NCBI RefSeq assembly: GCF_902652985.1
Contig: NC_047030.1
Location: 21,514,001-21,578,000, forward strand
Length of the DNA stretch: 64,000 nt
From: Pecten maximus
Taxonomy: Eukaryota
Direction of reading: 5' to 3'
Below, piece by piece: positions 1 through 51,000 of the stretch. The position numbers were made by a program. The first letter of the stretch is position 1, and the number at the start of each line of letters is the position of its first letter.

Positions 1-3000
1 ACACTGATAGGTGTTATAAGTGTCGTCTGCTGGTCACATCACACTGATAGGTGTTATAAGTGTCGTCTGCTGGTCACATCACACTGATAGGCGTGTTAAA
101 AGTGTCGTCTGCAGGTCACATCACACGGATATGCGTGTTATAAGTGTCGTCTGCTTGTCACATCACAGTGATAGGCATGTAATAACTGTCGTCTGCTTGT
201 CACATCAAACTGATAAGCGTTTTACAAGTGTCGTCTCCTTGTCACATCACAGTGATAGCCTTGTTATATTTGTCGTCTGCTGGTCACATCTCAGTGATAG
301 GTGGTATAACTGGCGTCTGCAGGTCACATCACACTGATAGGCGCGTTATAAGTGTCGTTTGCTAGCCACACACAGTGATTTCACTTAGTCGTTTGTGTGA
401 TTCCACGTAGTCATCTAAGTGATTTCACTTAGTCGTTTTAGTGATACATCACTAAGTTGTTTAAATGATTTCACTTGGTCGTTTGAGTGATTTCACTTAG
501 TCGTGTGTGTTATTTCACTTAGACGTTTGATTCGTTTCACTTAGTCGTTTGTGTGCTTTTTCTTACATGTTGAAGTGCACGTGATTTCACTTAGTCGTGT
601 GAGTGATTTCACTTAGTCGTGTCAGTTATTTTACATAGACGCTTGAGTGATTTCACTTATTCGTTTGAGTGATTTCACTTAGTCGTATGAGTGATTTCAC
701 TTAGTCGTTTTGATGATTTCACTTAGTCGTTTGTGTGCTTTTTCTTACATGTTGAAGTGCACGTGATTTCACTTAGTCGTGTGAGTGATTTCACTTAGTC
801 GTGTCAGTTATTTTACATAGACGCTTGAGTGATTTCACTTATTCGTTTGAGTGATTTCACTTAGTCGTATGAGTGATTTCACTTAGTCGTTTTGATGATT
901 TCACTTAGTCGTTTAAGTGATAATACTTAGTCGTTTGACTGATTTCACTTATTCGTGTGAGTTATTTCACTTAGTCGTTTGAGGGATTTCACTTAGTCAT
1001 ATGAGTGATAACATTTAGTCACATGAGTGAGAAATGTGAGAATGAGAAACCGGACCATGTAGTCAGGAAGATGACCCCATACCTTTTCACACATAGATGA
1101 AAGGCAAGTGCGTTACCACTTTGCTACCAAACCACTCGTAATACTTTTTATTTGTATGCGTTTTACACAATGTAATGTATTGTATTACATCTTCTTCATG
1201 TTAAACCATTAAATTACATTAAAGCTCAATTGAAATGGAATATTAATTGAATTGGTATTTTTCTTTATTATATAAAATGAAGACTTTAGAGATTGCATTG
1301 TGATAATATCAGAAAAAGAATTTTAAAGTTTGATATGAGGTCAATGGAACATATTTAGACCCCCTTGACTTAAACTTCCCTTAAGCAACATTTAGTATGG
1401 AATGTTGCATTAACTTACATCAGTCACCATTTGTGGCCCGAATAGAAGCGCGTGAGGGTTCTTACTGTGGGAGGAACCCGGAGGAAACCGTCGTAGTCGG
1501 ACAGGTGACCCCATGCGTTTTCACGTCCGATCGGAGAATCGAACCCAGGTCCCGGTGCCTAGGTGAAAGACAAGGGTGCTAACACTTTGCCACCCGACCA
1601 AGATTAAAATGAATTATATGCAATATGTTCAATGTTTACTTTATTCAATTAGCTCTTGTAACACACAACTTAAAACTTGTCGGAGTGATGAATCAAATCT
1701 GAAGATCTGAATTATACAATTAACTCAACGGAGATAAACTTTCAAAACAAAAGTTTATTTCAAATTGCAGAGTAATATACGAGATAGAATAGGACCATAA
1801 CCACAATGCTATAAACAGCTACATACGTTACTCATTAACTACTTACTAAAACCATATTTTAAAATGTTGTTACCAATTTTCCAGAATCATCAGTTGTGAA
1901 ATCAGACTTACTATCAAAATATCAAAATGAATCAATATCACTTCGTTGAAACAAAACATATTGGACAGCAATTCCAATGACAGTGATAAATACAGTTATT
2001 TTACAAATACGAATGCATCATATTACACGACCCCTTTGTATGTCTAAAGGGGAGCTAACTCCGCCTCCGTCTTGTAACAACTTGTATTAATTTTGTACTG
2101 TGATACGCTATATGAAATAATTTTACATTTTCTGTAACATGTAATTTGTTTTTAGAATTCTCAGTCAAGCGTGAAATCCGCTAGAACATCAGTTGTTAAA
2201 CACTTATATACTTTATATTAAATGTATTTTATATATCTTTGACATTATCTACAAGTGTTCTGCTTAAATAGTAAATAATTACAATTAGCCAATGAGCCGG
2301 ACTATGGTAGGCGGTACTATCGTTATGGCTGTGGTATGTGGTACTGTAGTTAAGGCTGTGGTAGGCAGTACTGTCCTATATAGCTGTGGTAGGCAGTACT
2401 GTAGTTATGGCTGTGGTAGGCGGTACTGTCCTATATAGCTGTGGTAGGCGGTACTGTCCTTATATAGCTGTGGTAGGCGGTGGTGTAGTTATGGCTGTGG
2501 TAGGCGGTACTGTCCTATTTAGCTGTGGTAGGCGGTACTGTCCTTATATAGCTGTGGTAGGCGGTACTGTCCGATTTAGCTGTGGTAGGCAGTGCTGTAG
2601 TTATGGCTGTGGTAGGCGGTACTGTCCTTATATAGCTGTGGTAGGCGGTGGTGTAGTTATGGCTGTGGTAGGCGGTACTGTCCTATTTAGCTGTGGTAGG
2701 CAGTACTGTAGTTATGGCTGTGGTAGGCGGTACTGTCCTTATATAGCTGTGGTAGGCGGAACTGTCCTATTTAGCTGTGGTAGGCGGTACTGTCCTTATA
2801 TAGCTGTGGTATATAGTTGTATATAGTTATGGCTGTGGTAGGCGGTAATGTAAATTGTTCTGTAGTCGACGACATTGTCGTTCTAGCGTTATGGCTGCGG
2901 TAGTTCGTACTGTCGGAACATGAGATTGTTGTACTCTATCACAGACTTAACAGATTCGAAATACACAGAGGAGCCCGCATACCACATTCCATATTTTCCT

Positions 3001-48000: not shown

Positions 48001-51000
48001 ATTTCTGAGATAATACGTACCATTGAGGATTGGTGCGTGACTTGCTATTTGACTGCCGCCTCCCTGAAAGAATGAGTAAAGTAGTAATCCACCAAGCACG
48101 AGACCTATCAAGGGCAGTATATCACCGTCAAATATCTCCGCATCATCCCCGGCTGGCCCCTGTAGCCCTGTAGATCCTGTGACGCCTGTGACACCGGTAG
48201 CCCCTGTCGCCCCAGATGGTCCTGTGGCTCCAGTTGCCCCGGTAGGACCAGTTGCTCCTGTTAGCCCAGTTGGTCCAGTTGACCCAGTAAGACCAGTAGG
48301 TCCAGTTGGTCCAGTTGGCCCAGTAGGACCGGTAGGCCCAGTTAGCCCAGTAGGACCAGTAGGCCCAGTAGATCCTGTGGGACCTGTAGGTCCGGTTGGG
48401 CCAGTAGGCCCAGTCGAACCAGTGGGACCGGTTGGACCGGTAGCCATTTAGAATCTGATTAGAGATAGACAGATATAAAACATTTAAGGAATTGAAACAA
48501 AATAAGACATAAAAGTAGCATTTTACGGAATTCCTTCATTGTATTAAATGTTCATCGCTAATATGTTTAATGTATAACCAACACGCATTACTATGCCGTA
48601 TAGCATTCTATCAATCTCCCGATTTTAAATGAAACTTTTAATATACACTACAAGTAAGATAGCAATTATGATAACACAAAATTCAGACATTGAAAGCAAT
48701 AATGCTTCCGAAAATTAGCACAAATATAGATATTTTAAACAATCAAAAAACCGTCTCCAATGATTGTTGGAGTTTGGAGACAATATGGGAATCCAGCATG
48801 AAATTGCGGGCAGAACAAATAAAGGAATTTAAAAAATCAATTTAAGATATCTAAAAAAAAAATTCCATTCCAGTGATTGTTGGAGCTTGGAGCCAATGTG
48901 GAAATCCAGTAGAAAATTACAACCGAAACAACTAATGAAGGCTTGATGTACAGACTACATAATTCTTATCAGCTCGATAAACTTGGAAACTGGGTTACTA
49001 TTCCAGAAATCAGTAAATTAAAACCTTTGTCACTATGCATAAGAATGTATGTGTTATTTGCACGGTTACCGTGAAACCCTGTAACTAAAATTCAATTTAA
49101 GAATGAACTCAAAGTTTACTCCTCTTTGGCATAATCCTCAAAGTATTGCACAAAAGGCACATGAATGGCGGCTTTAGATATAGACTTGGTGAAATATACA
49201 TTTAAAGTCGCATAAAAAATCCAGCATTGCTCATAAGGCGCCATGATTCAAAAATCCAGAGATGCTAGGAAAGTTGAAATATACCTATAGATATATATAT
49301 ATATGAAAACAATAGGAGAGAAAGTATATTGTTTATATTATAATTACATCGTTGTATTGTTATATTAATTTATACCGTGGGAGTTCTATTATTTTAACAG
49401 AAATATCCGGATATTGATTTTTTTAATGTTTTCAATTGTCATTTATATTTACGTTATATATATTACAGATATATAGTGTCTGCTTTCATCAACAATGATT
49501 TTATTGGTCGATTATATCCTGTGATTTGATAGATGTTATGAACGAATTCAACACCCTAAAAACTCGGAAATAAGACGTGGTTTATTTTCTTCATTAATGA
49601 TGCACTTCGGGCTTATTTTTTAGACTGATTTTAAAATAAGATAGCCAATTGCGACAGGCGGCCATTTTTTTGTCAGTGAAAGGTTGTTAATAAAAACTAT
49701 TTCTCAGAAAAGTTTTCAATATATATGATTATGATCTATATCAAACAATTCTTAATCTATTGTTTCACTTCTATTGTACACCCTTAAGAAGTAAAACTTT
49801 CAGATATGCAATTAAAACTTACCCGTGTATAAACAGGATGAGGGGAGCACTTCCACTAGATGCGCTGGCCTGGAGAAGTCGGTACTGAGCAGTTTTACAA
49901 TGACAGTCTTCACCTTTATATAGATAGACAACAAACCCGAACCCGTCATATGGCGCACCGAAACCACGCATCTGTTTCTTAGGGCCATGGGCACCGACCG
50001 CTGGAGACGGGGGTTTATATTCTGGGAAGCATAGCTCCTTACTGCATGTTTGGAGCCGAGTCTGGGGAATCACGCCACCTAAACCAAGGGCGATCTCTGT
50101 GTGGCCCACTATAGCTTGATGGCCGTTTTTCCATTGTATTTGTATAATGAACATTAAATTGGGATCCATTTCAATATTTTTCTTCTTTTTATTTCTTTTT
50201 TTTTTTACTCATTTTCGGGAAATGTGTGCTTTACAAGCCTTTGGTTGATGACCAATTAAAACTTATAACATTGACATCGTTGATACTTTCCTGCAATTAG
50301 ATACACTTTGTTTACTAAGAGTCTTGTGTTTGTTTGTGTTTTGATTACATCATAAAATTGGTACGGTGGTATTACAGGCGTGTACTTATAGAAACAAAAA
50401 TATTAGCCTCTACTCTTCGTAAGAGTAAAGGGCTATTTTTCTGTTTATACAGACCAGAAGTGAACGCCTGCTGTGGTGTTTTATGTATGTATGTTTTTCT
50501 TCTCTCTGATTTTTGTGTATAAAGTGTAGACAGATTCGTTTGAAGTGTTAGGTTTTGTCAATGCATTAGAAACATAAGAGGTTGGGAAGATATATAACGC
50601 TACTGATAAAAATGTCGATTGTCATAGATAAATTGATTAATTTGTCTGTAAAACTCTTGATGTTATATTTAATGAATAAAGACTTTTGATAAGCGAAACG
50701 TTTTAATGGTATTTTTTTTTCTAATTTCCTGGCCATTGACTTTCTTTTTTTAATAAATACTCTCCTAATAACTTTAATAACAAATCAACGGAAAATTGTT
50801 TAGTCCAGTTTAATTTTATAATTTACGTATCTAGGAATTACATTTTGCTAAGTATGTACTTTTAAAATACAAGGGATGTGTTATTAGCCTGTTCGTCTAC
50901 ATGTGGTAACTGAAGATCCACCGCAAGCGGCTACACTGGCGTCCTGACGCCTTCTGGGATATCTTGACACGCCAAAGTCTTGGGAAGTGGTTTACCGCTT

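What the first reader, a model, noticed from the sequence alone, without database searches (positions are those of the whole stretch)
2889..48447. Co-oriented group of secreted lipid-modifying enzymes: candidate animal metabolic or secretory gene cluster
Seen: four consecutive minus-strand genes with no intervening housekeeping gene: a secreted flavin isomerase-like enzyme, two secreted DxDD proteins and a collagen-like membrane protein. Both enzyme loci show local amplification (6x 5' end, 2x gene). Inference: they may act together outside the cell on unsaturated lipids (defence, mucus, periostracum/shell or egg coat). Chance adjacency is quite possible.
[Added by the scan's program, not by the reader: the finding's places include an assembly gap (unread letters, written N; its length is only estimated) at 5276 to 5403. 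Whether the letters on both sides are continuous or in frame is not known: test that first.]
Basis: inference. Interest (0 to 1): 0.65.

Follow-up and report, generated by a model that had tools for sequence, protein, structure and literature searches.

The report
Adjacent secreted-enzyme genes, cluster unproven
Three unrelated gene loci lie side by side on one strand of an intron-rich animal chromosome: a fatty-acid-isomerase-like flavoenzyme, a duplicated secreted protein of unknown family with a terpene-cyclase-like motif, and a collagen-like membrane protein; nothing yet shows that they work together.

Summary
Gene 1 (2889-15424, minus) encodes an FAD amine-oxidase-fold protein. Its only solved relative is the P. 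acnes fatty-acid isomerase 2b9w (E 9.4e-7; E 0.0092). The assembly gap lies in a satellite inside its intron 3, and no frame crosses it. Six copies of a 51-nt ATG-hydrophobic-GT element sit in a 1.5-1.7 kb tandem array just upstream. Genes 2 and 3 are nine-exon tandem paralogues, 626 aa, with a signal peptide and one DFDDTS motif. They show dN/dS 0.13, but copy B has a +1 frameshift. No Pfam, NCBIfam or PDB sequence match was found exon by exon. One language-model lead (0.92) points to class II terpene-cyclase domains. Gene 4 is a collagen-like Gly-X-Thr ORF with one membrane helix, and its codon-periodic variation supports coding. The idea that these genes act together on lipids could not be tested. 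No animal genome, expression or broad protein search was available, and the promoters share no words. Chance adjacency plus local duplication is the most likely reading. A secreted terpene-cyclase-like family beside an isomerase-like gene remains an interesting minority possibility.

The parts
2889..4087 (-). Gene 1, last exon (exon 4): 398 codons plus stop. Encodes the substrate-binding and C-terminal FAD-domain part of a PAI-like flavoenzyme.
   Evidence: Its only PDB sequence match at E<=1 is 2b9w: E 9.4e-7, stretches 134-184 and 330-416 of the chain. The acceptor TTGCAG|AT is in phase with exon 3. It has four N-x-S/T sequons. Pfam and NCBIfam gave no family for this exon.
4130..6990 (.). 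TC-rich 20-bp satellite in intron 3 of gene 1. It holds the assembly gap 5276-5403.
   Evidence: TRF rows of period 20 and 60 on both sides of the gap. N run located. Stops in all six frames within 200 nt of each side.
9062..9266 (-). Gene 1, exon 3: second half of the FAD-binding beta-alpha-beta unit.
   Evidence: Pfam Amino_oxidase scores 26.1 bits against a cut-off of 19.8 (E 6.4e-6). NAD_binding_8 scores 22.3 bits against 21.9. The best PDB hit is 2b9w residues 27-77, E 0.0092; MAO-N is next at 0.46.
14033..14212 (-). Gene 1, exon 2, with the dinucleotide-binding motif VVGAGPSG. The start could instead be at 14217, using the first AG.
   Evidence: Read directly from the sequence. The AG at 14213-14214 gives phase 0, which fits the candidate exon 1. 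The first AG, 5 nt upstream, gives a stop after exon 1. The donor AAG|GTACTT is in phase with exon 3.
15374..15424 (-). Candidate exon 1 of gene 1: ATG plus 17 codons (MMGTPPVLMLILFGCFQ), followed by the donor GTATGA. This is the array copy nearest the gene.
   Evidence: It is the only ATG-started hydrophobic ORF with a usable donor in 14264-27650 on the minus strand (the donor weights are recalled approximations). Searches show the copies.
15372..24736 (.). Tandem array of six units (1491-1689 bp, 93-98.5% alike). Each unit carries the 51-nt element; the further copies are at 17063-17113, 18561-18611, 20166-20216, 21657-21707 and 23260-23310. Each unit also carries a 38-bp minisatellite and a 440-bp interspersed repeat.
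   Evidence: Self-BLAST. 6 of 6 pattern matches with 0 expected. Unit lengths, and the inverted copy of the repeat at 12475-13001. Copies 2-6 have TGTATAAAC about 100 nt upstream of the ATG but weak donors (GTTACA or GTGACA). Copy 1 has the good donor but TGTTTGAAC in place of the TATA-like word.
27694..34593 (-). DxDD gene copy A: nine exons, 626 codons. Exons: 34144-34593, 33775-33914, 33035-33332, 32114-32281, 31482-31655, 29590-29742, 28891-28996, 28341-28462, 27694-27963.
   Evidence: Frames, phases and GT-AG at 8 of 8 introns. Exons are 90-100% identical to copy B, whereas the colinear blocks that include introns are 73-93%. dN/dS is 0.129. A TATA-like CTATATAAC lies about 80 nt before the ATG.
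34525..34593 (-). Signal-peptide-like start of copy A (MERNVMLFVVLLGCIAVLNPANG).
   Evidence: Read directly from the sequence. No signal-peptide predictor was available.
33287..33298 (-). DFDD motif of copy A, in the context RIPPDFDDTSVNLGL. The same motif in copy B is at 41199-41210.
   Evidence: One D.DD in 624 residues, where 0.105 is expected from composition. The exon holding it gave the Atlas lead to class II terpene-cyclase domains.
36429..42570 (-). DxDD gene copy B: the same nine exons. Exons: 42121-42570, 41765-41904, 40947-41244, 39571-39739, 38892-39065, 38472-38624, 37923-38028, 36999-37120, 36429-36698.
   Evidence: Colinear with copy A. Splice sites are conserved at all nine exons. 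GT-AG at 8 of 8 introns.
39668..39669 (-). Extra T in exon 4 of copy B (AACGTTCGAC against AACGTCGAC in copy A), which shifts the frame.
   Evidence: DNA alignment and the split of the ORF over two frames. Whether this is a real pseudogene or a sequencing error cannot be told from one assembly.
47848..48447 (-). Gene 4: a 199-codon ORF. It holds 32 Gly-X-Y triplets (48151-48438), an acidic stretch, one hydrophobic helix [18 protein letters not shown] (48067-48120), and then 17-aa repeats.
   Evidence: Pfam Collagen, E 2e-16, 59.9 bits against a cut-off of 27.2. GG is invariant in 33 of 33 triplets while all third codon positions vary. ATG context TAAATGG.
47340..48035 (.). 51-bp (17-aa) tandem repeat, 13.8 copies, forming the 3' part of gene 4. 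It is open in all three minus frames, and indels switch the frame.
   Evidence: TRF and the ORF list. The true C-terminus of gene 4 is therefore uncertain.

Best explanation
The span holds three independent loci that are neighbours on the minus strand of an intron-rich, animal-type chromosome. The taxon was not determined. Two of the loci have been enlarged by recent local tandem duplication. They are most likely not a pathway cluster.

(1) Gene 1 encodes a protein of about 544 aa with the FAD amine-oxidase fold. Its nearest solved relative is the Propionibacterium acnes polyunsaturated fatty-acid isomerase. It probably enters the secretory pathway through a 17-codon first exon. I infer that it uses FAD to shift or oxidise double bonds in a long unsaturated lipid chain.

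(2) Genes 2 and 3 are tandem paralogues of a nine-exon gene. The product is a 626-aa, aromatic-rich protein with a signal peptide and many glycosylation sequons. Its first exon models as all helices. It has kept its sequence under purifying selection, but copy B now carries a frameshift. I infer that it is an alpha-helical barrel enzyme whose DFDD aspartates act as a general acid on an extracellular substrate. Whether that substrate is an isoprenoid or a glycan is open.

(3) Gene 4 encodes a collagen-like protein (Gly-X-Thr) with one membrane helix and 17-aa repeats. It is structural and has no link to lipid chemistry.

Shown: the gene structures, the duplications, the frameshift, the similarity to the isomerase, and selection on the paralogues and on the Gly codons. 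Inferred: secretion, the chemistry, and the lack of a functional link.
For: Gene 1
- 2b9w is the only PDB match of exon 4 (E 9.4e-7) and the best match of exon 3 (E 0.0092). The matches are colinear.
- Pfam Amino_oxidase is above its cut-off in exon 3.
- The GxGxxG motif is in exon 2.
- Exons are in phase, with GT-AG at 3 of 3 introns.

DxDD genes
- 50 synonymous against 25 non-synonymous differences, dS 0.134, dN/dS 0.129.
- Splice sites conserved at all nine exons.
- Exon 1 model is all helices, at a low pLDDT of 57.4.
- 9 sequons and 13.3% F+W+Y.

Gene 4
- Collagen, E 2e-16.
- GG invariant in 33 of 33 triplets while third positions vary.

Against a functional link
- There are three independent loci, so the chance of a shared strand is 1 in 4.
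- No shared promoter words of 10 nt or more between gene 1 and either DxDD copy, between gene 1 and gene 4, or between DxDD copy A and gene 4 (0 shared; 0.26-0.58 expected). Copy B and gene 4 share one 10-mer.
- No other recognisable gene lies in the span (0 of 106 ORFs).
- Tandem duplication alone explains the '2x' and '6x' features.
Against: - Two of the three loci could both act on polyene lipids. One is isomerase-like by sequence. The other has a language-model lead of 0.92 to AstC-like and squalene-hopene-cyclase domains.
- Both appear to carry signal peptides.
- Both are locally amplified, which is common for defence and digestive genes.
- All lie on one strand within 45 kb.
- A pairing of an amine-oxidase-fold flavoenzyme with a class II cyclase exists in bacterial hopanoid loci (hpnE beside shc). 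This is recalled, not checked.
- The promoter test is weak: same-strand exact words only, over 400 nt.
Confidence: 0.55

Rival explanations
1. This is a true animal metabolic gene cluster. The secreted isomerase-like flavoenzyme and the DxDD proteins act in sequence on one class of polyene lipid, either polyunsaturated fatty acids or isoprenoids. They would make conjugated or cyclised defensive or matrix lipids. The collagen-like membrane protein would be a co-expressed scaffold or a bystander.
For: - Gene 1 resembles a fatty-acid isomerase.
- Atlas search with the DxDD exon: rank 1 is AstC-like_C at 0.92. Seven further listed rows carry SQHop_cyclase_C at 0.81-0.84.
- The DFDDTS motif is kept in both copies.
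- Both enzymes appear to have signal peptides.
- Same strand, no recognisable gene between them, and both loci amplified.
- Animal-encoded clusters are known: a mollusc bursatellin cluster (PMC11869996, seen only as search listing and start of abstract) and soft-coral terpene clusters (recalled).
Against: - No test of co-expression or synteny was possible.
- No shared promoter words.
- One DxDD copy is frameshifted.
- The terpene-cyclase link rests on one exon and one kind of evidence. The other exon tried (exon 1) scored only 0.83, which is noise, with unrelated families.
- 0 of 9 exons hit the Pfam cyclase or prenyltransferase models.
- No QW motif was found.
- Known class II cyclases are cytosolic or membrane-associated, not secreted glycoproteins (recalled).
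- In the sponge studied in PMC13483135, terpenoid genes were reported as not clustered (passage read).
Confidence: 0.12
2. The DxDD proteins are not lipid enzymes. They would be secreted six-hairpin (alpha/alpha barrel) glycosidase- or lyase-like enzymes, or non-enzymatic helical-repeat proteins, of digestion, mucus or matrix. The DFDD would then be a carboxylate pair for glycan chemistry or a chance motif, which removes the lipid theme from two of the four genes.
For: - A signal peptide and 9 in-exon N-x-S/T sequons fit an extracellular glycoprotein.
- One D.DD is expected by chance about once in ten proteins of this size and composition (0.105).
- There are no QW motifs and no cyclase Pfam hit.
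- By the Atlas tool's own calibration, only 2 of the ten best named hits share a family or clan with the first hit, which it rates as 'that family is probably wrong'. The shared-feature count of 168 is just under the 170 typical of true members.
- Squalene-cyclase-type Pfam families sit with the six-hairpin glycosidases in one structural superfamily (recalled), so such leads cannot separate the two.
Against: - No glycoside-hydrolase or lyase family matched any exon in Pfam at E<=10.
- None matched in PDB at E<=10 for the 6 of 9 exons tried.
- The extended context PPDFDDTS resembles the cyclase acid motif followed by Thr (recalled).
- The named Atlas rows are cyclase-type, not glycosidase-type.
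Confidence: 0.2
3. Part of the pattern is an assembly artefact. The two DxDD copies or the six-unit array would be collapsed or expanded haplotypes or mis-assembled repeats, and the collagen-like ORF would be only a tandem repeat that happens to be open.
For: - The window is rich in satellites (56 TRF rows) and contains a gap.
- Array units are 93-98.5% alike.
- The 51-bp repeat of gene 4 is open in all three frames and switches frame.
- Copy B's single-base insertion could be a sequencing error.
Against: - Copies A and B differ at dS 0.134, and several introns differ greatly in length, for example 1739 against 267 nt. They lie head to tail in one contig. That is far beyond allelic difference.
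- The Gly codons of gene 4 show codon-periodic conservation.
- Array units differ in length through their minisatellite (1491-1689 bp), as real arrays do.
Confidence: 0.06

Closest known systems
Propionibacterium (Cutibacterium) acnes polyunsaturated fatty-acid isomerase, PDB 2b9w (deposited as 'putative aminooxidase')
   Same: FAD amine-oxidase fold. The N-terminal GxGxxG and the E..GG segment are present. Similarity is colinear in two separate exons, and 2b9w is the only or the best solved relative in both searches.
   Different: Similarity is low: 31 bits over two stretches of exon 4. Gene 1 is a split animal gene with a probable signal peptide and an acidic N-terminal extension. Catalytic and gating residues could not be aligned. 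Activity is unknown.
Ptilota filicina (red alga) polyenoic fatty acid isomerase
   Same: It is a eukaryotic marine enzyme that makes conjugated trienes from arachidonate and EPA (passages of the review PMC7700177).
   Different: No sequence was available here, so homology with gene 1 is untested. That it is a secreted flavo-glycoprotein is recalled only; Zheng et al. 2002 was seen only as a reference entry.
Class II (protonation-initiated) terpene cyclases: squalene-hopene cyclase and the AstC-type TC domain
   Same: A D-x-D-D-T motif at the start of a helix in a helical protein. There is an Atlas feature lead of 0.92 to AstC-like_C and 0.81-0.84 to SQHop_cyclase_C. The protein is aromatic-rich. 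AstC's TC domain is a 12-helix alpha6-alpha6 barrel with an Asp acid/base pair (passages of PMC13244436).
   Different: There is no Pfam or PDB sequence match in any exon tried. There are no QW motifs and no HAD domain. The motif lies about a third of the way along, not at about 59% as in squalene-hopene cyclase (recalled). The protein has a signal peptide and many sequons. The fold is not established.
Animal-encoded biosynthetic gene clusters (soft-coral terpene clusters, mollusc bursatellin cluster)
   Same: Neighbouring, co-oriented genes for different enzyme types in an animal genome, with local duplication.
   Different: Those clusters are supported by expression, synteny or reconstituted chemistry; here there is none. 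The coral papers are recalled. PMC11869996 was seen only as a search listing and start of abstract.
Collagen-like (Gly-X-Y) repeat membrane proteins
   Same: 32 uninterrupted Gly-X-Y triplets, a Pfam Collagen match and one hydrophobic helix.
   Different: There is no signal peptide or globular domain in the ORF. Y is almost always Thr and X is often Pro. The C-terminal part is an unstable 17-aa repeat.

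Membership tests
PAI-like FAD-dependent fatty-acid isomerases (amine-oxidase fold) | N-terminal dinucleotide-binding GxGxxG followed by an acidic residue and a GG segment | tested here: met
   VVGAGPSG is in exon 2. FEKEDKVGG is in exon 3, where Pfam Amino_oxidase scores 26.1 bits (cut-off 19.8) and NAD_binding_8 scores 22.3 bits (cut-off 21.9).
PAI-like FAD-dependent fatty-acid isomerases (amine-oxidase fold) | Sequence similarity to the solved isomerase beyond the FAD-binding motif, and closer than to other amine oxidases | tested here: met
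   For exon 4, 2b9w is the only PDB sequence at E<=1 (9.4e-7; chain residues 134-184 and 330-416). For exon 3, 2b9w scores 0.0092 against 0.46 for MAO-N. No L-amino-acid oxidase, phytoene desaturase or MAO matched exon 4.
PAI-like FAD-dependent fatty-acid isomerases (amine-oxidase fold) | Three-domain fold with a hydrophobic substrate channel leading to flavin N5 | tested here: inconclusive
   The single-sequence AlphaFold2 model of exon 4 had pLDDT 34.6 and was unusable. The joined protein was not folded.
PAI-like FAD-dependent fatty-acid isomerases (amine-oxidase fold) | Isomerase activity on free polyunsaturated fatty acids without net redox change | not testable with these tools
   This needs an enzyme assay.
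Class II terpene cyclases (squalene-hopene cyclase, AstC-type) | Catalytic DxDD (or DxDT) acid motif | tested here: met
   DFDDTS is present in both copies. Chance expectation is 0.105 per protein, so the motif alone is weak evidence.
Class II terpene cyclases (squalene-hopene cyclase, AstC-type) | Match to the family's sequence models (SQHop_cyclase_N/C, Prenyltrans, AstC-like_C) | tested here: not met
   0 of 9 exons matched at E<=10 in the local Pfam. 0 of the 6 exons given matched in NCBIfam. Two caveats apply. Exons were searched one by one. PF28380 (AstC-like_C) is named by the Atlas from Pfam 38.1 and may be absent from the local Pfam copy.
Class II terpene cyclases (squalene-hopene cyclase, AstC-type) | Alpha/alpha barrel (beta or beta-gamma) fold | tested here: inconclusive
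   The exon 1 model has 7 helices at pLDDT 57.4. Foldseek against PDB gave 0 of 145 matches at E<=0.001. The Atlas lead for exon 3 is 0.92. The Atlas search with exon 1 reached only 0.83, which is noise.
Class II terpene cyclases (squalene-hopene cyclase, AstC-type) | QW repeats (for squalene-hopene and oxidosqualene cyclases) | tested here: not met
   No strict or loose Q-x(2-5)-G-x-W pattern in any of the 9 exons. The pattern itself is recalled.
Animal biosynthetic gene cluster | Adjacent genes for at least two enzyme types of one pathway | tested here: inconclusive
   Two enzyme-like loci are adjacent, but a shared pathway is not shown.
Animal biosynthetic gene cluster | Co-expression and conserved linkage across species | not testable with these tools
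   No animal genomes or transcriptomes were on hand. Prokaryote scans found no relatives. The promoter word test was negative.
Collagen-like proteins | Uninterrupted Gly-X-Y triplets kept by selection | tested here: met
   32 triplets plus GDD. GG is invariant in 33 of 33 triplets while codon positions 3, 6 and 9 vary. Pfam Collagen scores 59.9 bits.

The most novel reading that the evidence does not exclude
The DxDD genes would encode a so far undescribed animal family of secreted, glycosylated class II (acid-initiated) terpene-cyclase-like enzymes. Their position beside a secreted isomerase-like flavoenzyme would mark an animal-encoded extracellular pathway that conjugates or cyclises polyene lipids for defence, mucus or shell-matrix chemistry. 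This would be the first class II cyclase outside sterol synthesis to be tied to a gene cluster in a mollusc-type genome.
Probability: 0.1. Interest if true: 0.75.

Novelty: new member of a known kind. Interest (0 to 1): 0.35.

Why it matters
If the neighbours are unrelated, which I think most likely, the value is in annotation. The work gives:
- an animal gene for a fatty-acid-isomerase-like flavoenzyme, with an unusual six-fold duplicated promoter and first-exon module;
- a well-supported nine-exon model for an uncharacterised secreted protein family under purifying selection.

If the minority reading holds, it would add a new enzyme family and a new cluster to the short list of animal-encoded lipid or terpenoid pathways. 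It would also give a direct handle on who makes conjugated or cyclised lipids in marine invertebrates: the animal or its microbes. That question is testable with two recombinant proteins and standard substrates.

Tried and rejected
- Pfam on raw ORFs and on trimmed exons at E<=10. Nothing was found for any DxDD exon except a noise hit to DUF7464 (E 0.2).
- NCBIfam on 6 of 9 DxDD exons and 3 gene 1 exons. Only sub-threshold flavoprotein hits, in the gene 1 exons.
- PDB sequence search for DxDD exons 1, 3, 4, 5, 7 and 9. The only results were chance hits to TPR repeats and DnaD (E 0.075 to 4.7).
- Scans of bacterial and archaeal genomes with DxDD exon 1 (0 relatives among 29 pattern matches) and gene 1 exon 4 (0 among 108). 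The patterns are exact 8-mers, so this excludes only close relatives. It also argues against bacterial contamination.
- tblastn of the DxDD exon against plasmids: 4 records, all at E>=0.8.
- AlphaFold2 on DxDD exon 1 with the two-row A/B alignment gave pLDDT 57.4. Foldseek with that model gave nothing. AlphaFold2 on gene 1 exon 4 gave pLDDT 34.6. Both models are too poor to use.
- Atlas search with DxDD exon 1: best score 0.83, which is noise.
- Poly(A) signals: uninformative.
- Promoter word sharing: none.
- A phase-1 first exon for gene 1 was sought in 14264-27650 and not found. I therefore rejected the model with the first AG (14218-14219) in favour of the AG 5 nt downstream, but this is not proven.
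- L-amino-acid oxidase, the known secreted flavoenzyme of mollusc defence (recalled), was considered for gene 1 and rejected because no such PDB chain matched.
- Six literature searches found no paper on an isomerase-like or non-sterol class II cyclase gene in a mollusc. One search found 2 papers holding both 'class II terpene' and 'mollus', and by title neither is on this subject. The library holds open-access papers only.

Full report
SCOPE AND LIMITS
The window is 64 kb with 36.6% G+C, CpG observed/expected 0.86 and a single N run at 5276-5403. All gene models below are split by GT-AG introns, so this is eukaryotic, animal-type DNA. Nothing looked human.

The spliced gene models were searched exon by exon. 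This lowers sensitivity for the DxDD protein in particular.

How widely these families occur in animals therefore stayed unchecked. Supplementary files of papers were not consulted.

THE GAP
The gap lies inside a TC-rich 20-bp satellite that runs from 4130 to 6990. Within 200 nt of either side, all six frames contain stops: 1-7 per frame. The gap falls in intron 3 of gene 1. The exons on either side match adjacent, colinear parts of the same solved protein. Nothing coding is expected to be missing, though that last point is an inference.

GENE 1
- Exon 4 (2889-4087, 398 codons) has one PDB sequence match at E<=1. It is 2b9w, the Propionibacterium acnes fatty-acid isomerase, deposited as 'putative aminooxidase'. 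The E-value is 9.4e-7, over chain residues 134-184 and 330-416.
- Exon 3 (9062-9266) passes the Pfam Amino_oxidase cut-off (26.1 bits against 19.8) and the NAD_binding_8 cut-off. Its best PDB hit is again 2b9w, residues 27-77, at E 0.0092. Monoamine oxidase N follows at 0.46.
- Exon 2 carries VVGAGPSG.
- No L-amino-acid oxidase, phytoene desaturase or other amine oxidase matched exon 4.

Activity is untested. A single-sequence model of exon 4 was useless, at pLDDT 34.6.

THE '6x 5' END'
A tandem array of six units (1491-1689 bp, 93-98.5% alike) fills 15372-24736. Each unit holds:
- a 38-bp minisatellite of variable length;
- a 440-bp interspersed repeat that recurs, inverted, at 12475-13001;
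- a 51-nt element, ATG plus 16 further codons reading MMGTPPVLMLILFGCFQ, followed at once by GT. There are 6 matches where 0 are expected.

The array ends two bases beyond that GT in the copy nearest the gene.

I scanned 14264-27650 on the minus strand for ATG-started hydrophobic ORFs with a usable donor. The scan returned only this proximal copy, listed from each of its two adjacent ATGs (the donor weights are recalled approximations). Its donor is in phase 0. The first AG before exon 2 would then give a stop. The AG 5 nt further on (exon start 14212) reads on in frame.

This gives an in-phase four-exon model of 544 codons with a signal-peptide-like start. It is an inference that needs transcripts.

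One oddity remains. Copies 2-6 keep a TATA-like word about 100 nt before the ATG but have weak donors. Copy 1 has the strong donor but has lost that word.

GENES 2 AND 3
The two copies are colinear. Copy A has nine exons and 626 codons, and all its phases fit. Every splice site is kept in copy B. All 16 introns are GT-AG.

Exons are 90-100% identical between the copies. The colinear blocks that include introns are 73-93% identical, and several introns differ greatly in length.

Counted exon by exon, there are 50 synonymous and 25 non-synonymous differences. This gives dS 0.134 and dN/dS 0.129. These are therefore real genes, kept by selection since the duplication, and not haplotype copies.

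Copy B has one extra T in exon 4. That is either a very recent pseudogene or a sequencing error.

The protein starts with MERNVMLFVVLLGCIAVLNPANG. It has 9 in-exon N-x-S/T sequons, 13.3% aromatic residues and a single DFDD in the context RIPPDFDDTSVNLGL.

WHAT THE DxDD PROTEIN IS
Sequence searches found nothing:
- Pfam: 0 of 9 exons at E<=10, apart from one noise hit.
- NCBIfam: 0 of the 6 exons given.
- PDB: nothing significant for the 6 of 9 exons tried.
- Prokaryotic genomes: no close relative.
- Plasmids: nothing.

The exon 1 model is all helices but of low confidence, at pLDDT 57.4, and Foldseek found nothing with it.

One D.DD is expected 0.105 times per protein of this composition, so the motif alone proves little.

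The one positive lead is the Atlas feature search with the 99-aa DxDD exon. Rank 1 is a cluster named 'Sesquiterpene cyclase astC-like C-terminal domain': score 0.92, 168 shared features, PF28380 in 94% of members. Of the ten rows listed, two carry AstC-like_C and seven carry SQHop_cyclase_C (0.81-0.84).

The tool's own calibration tempers this:
- Only 2 of the ten best named hits share a family or clan with the first.
- The count of 168 is just under the usual 170.
- Nothing was calibrated for parts of proteins.
- The same search with exon 1 gave only noise, at 0.83.

From passages of PMC13244436, the AstC cyclase domain is a 12-helix alpha6-alpha6 barrel like the beta domain of class II cyclases, with an Asp acid/base pair in a DxDT motif. 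The same paper states that drimane synthases are known from plants, bacteria and fungi.

I found no QW motif. I put the chance that this is a class II-cyclase-like barrel at roughly 0.4. I put the chance that it really cyclises terpenoids at roughly 0.2. A secreted six-hairpin glycosidase-like enzyme is the main alternative.

GENE 4
The ORF 47848-48447 reads MAT, then 32 Gly-X-Y triplets. An acidic stretch follows, then the helix [18 protein letters not shown] and 17-aa repeats.

It matches Pfam Collagen at E 2e-16. The two G's of every Gly codon are invariant in 33 of 33 triplets, while codon positions 3, 6 and 9 each show all four bases. That pattern indicates selection on the protein, so the ORF is not just an open repeat.

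The 51-bp repeat behind it (13.8 copies) is open in three frames and changes frame. The C-terminus is therefore uncertain. No signal peptide is encoded in this ORF.

IS IT A CLUSTER?
- No other Pfam-recognisable ORF lies in the span. I scanned 106 of the 141 ORFs of 65 aa or more, and 0 reached a curated cut-off. The five sub-threshold hits all lie in tandem repeats.
- The 35 ORFs left out fall into four groups. Some had already been scanned. Some were copy-B counterparts of scanned copy-A ORFs. Some were near-identical ORFs of array units 2-6. The rest were plus-strand ORFs inside the 51-bp repeat.
- With two of the four genes being duplicates, there are three independent loci. The chance that all three share a strand is 1 in 4.
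- The 400 nt upstream of gene 1, of the DxDD genes and of gene 4 share no words of 10 nt or more beyond chance, whereas DxDD copies A and B share 100 such words.
- No relatives were found in prokaryotic genomes whose neighbourhoods could have tested linkage.

The cluster idea is neither supported nor refuted. The common theme that remains is two loci that might both act on polyene lipids, both apparently secreted, and both amplified.

LITERATURE
- The review PMC7700177 (passages) describes the Ptilota filicina isomerase that makes conjugated trienes.
- PMC13483135 (passages) reports DxDD-type and DCTAE-type type II synthases in sponges, found through the squalene-cyclase signature. It also reports no clustering of terpenoid genes in the sponge studied.
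- Six searches found no open-access paper on an isomerase-like gene or a non-sterol class II cyclase encoded by a mollusc.

VERDICT
The interpretation cannot be judged with these tools. The default reading is ordinary adjacency plus local tandem duplication. Interest is moderate to low (0.35). It is carried by the uncharacterised secreted DxDD family and by the duplicated first-exon module of gene 1.

Noticed in passing
window 33876-34096 and 41866-42078: A 50-bp tandem repeat (about 4.3 copies) fills intron 1 of both DxDD copies. Its last unit supplies the acceptor and the first codons of exon 2 (GWVSTPINLL...), so part of a coding exon is made of repeat sequence.
   Followed up: partly
window 12475-13001 and array units in 15372-24736; possibly 46118-46306: An interspersed repeat of about 440 bp (82-86% alike) occurs inverted in intron 2 of gene 1 and once in each array unit. 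An ORF fragment with similar residues lies at 46118-46306. No transposase domain was found.
   Followed up: partly
window 25181-26487: A 30-bp satellite of 43 copies lies between the array and DxDD copy A. It is open on both strands and gives a sub-threshold Pfam HC2 hit, which is a low-complexity artefact.
   Followed up: yes
window 45514-45795 (-): An ORF with a 27-bp repeat encodes NTGYNYGLS-type Gly/Tyr/Asn-rich units between DxDD copy B and gene 4. It could be an exon of a structural (matrix-like) protein or only a repeat. It has no Pfam hit.
   Followed up: no
window 52925-54144 (+): There is an ankyrin-repeat gene on the opposite strand (Ank_2, E 1.4e-12). A further ORF at 53746-54144 ends in a hydrophobic stretch. 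This is the first recognisable gene to the right of the finding.
   Followed up: no
window 55963-57425: A 155-bp satellite of 9.5 copies, 94% matches.
   Followed up: no
window 1-2851: Downstream of gene 1's stop there are only satellites: 42-bp, 22/182-bp and 55/84-bp units. No AATAAA or ATTAAA lies within 800 nt of the stop.
   Followed up: partly
window 47340-48035: Each 51-bp unit of gene 4's repeat contains GGTACGT and TTATCTCAG, which look like a splice donor and a splice acceptor. The repeat could offer many alternative splice sites. This is untested.
   Followed up: no
window 61333-61749 (-): An ORF with a sub-threshold coiled-coil hit (CCDC113_CCDC96_CC, 20.3 bits against a cut-off of 31.6). 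It partly overlaps a 57-bp repeat.
   Followed up: no
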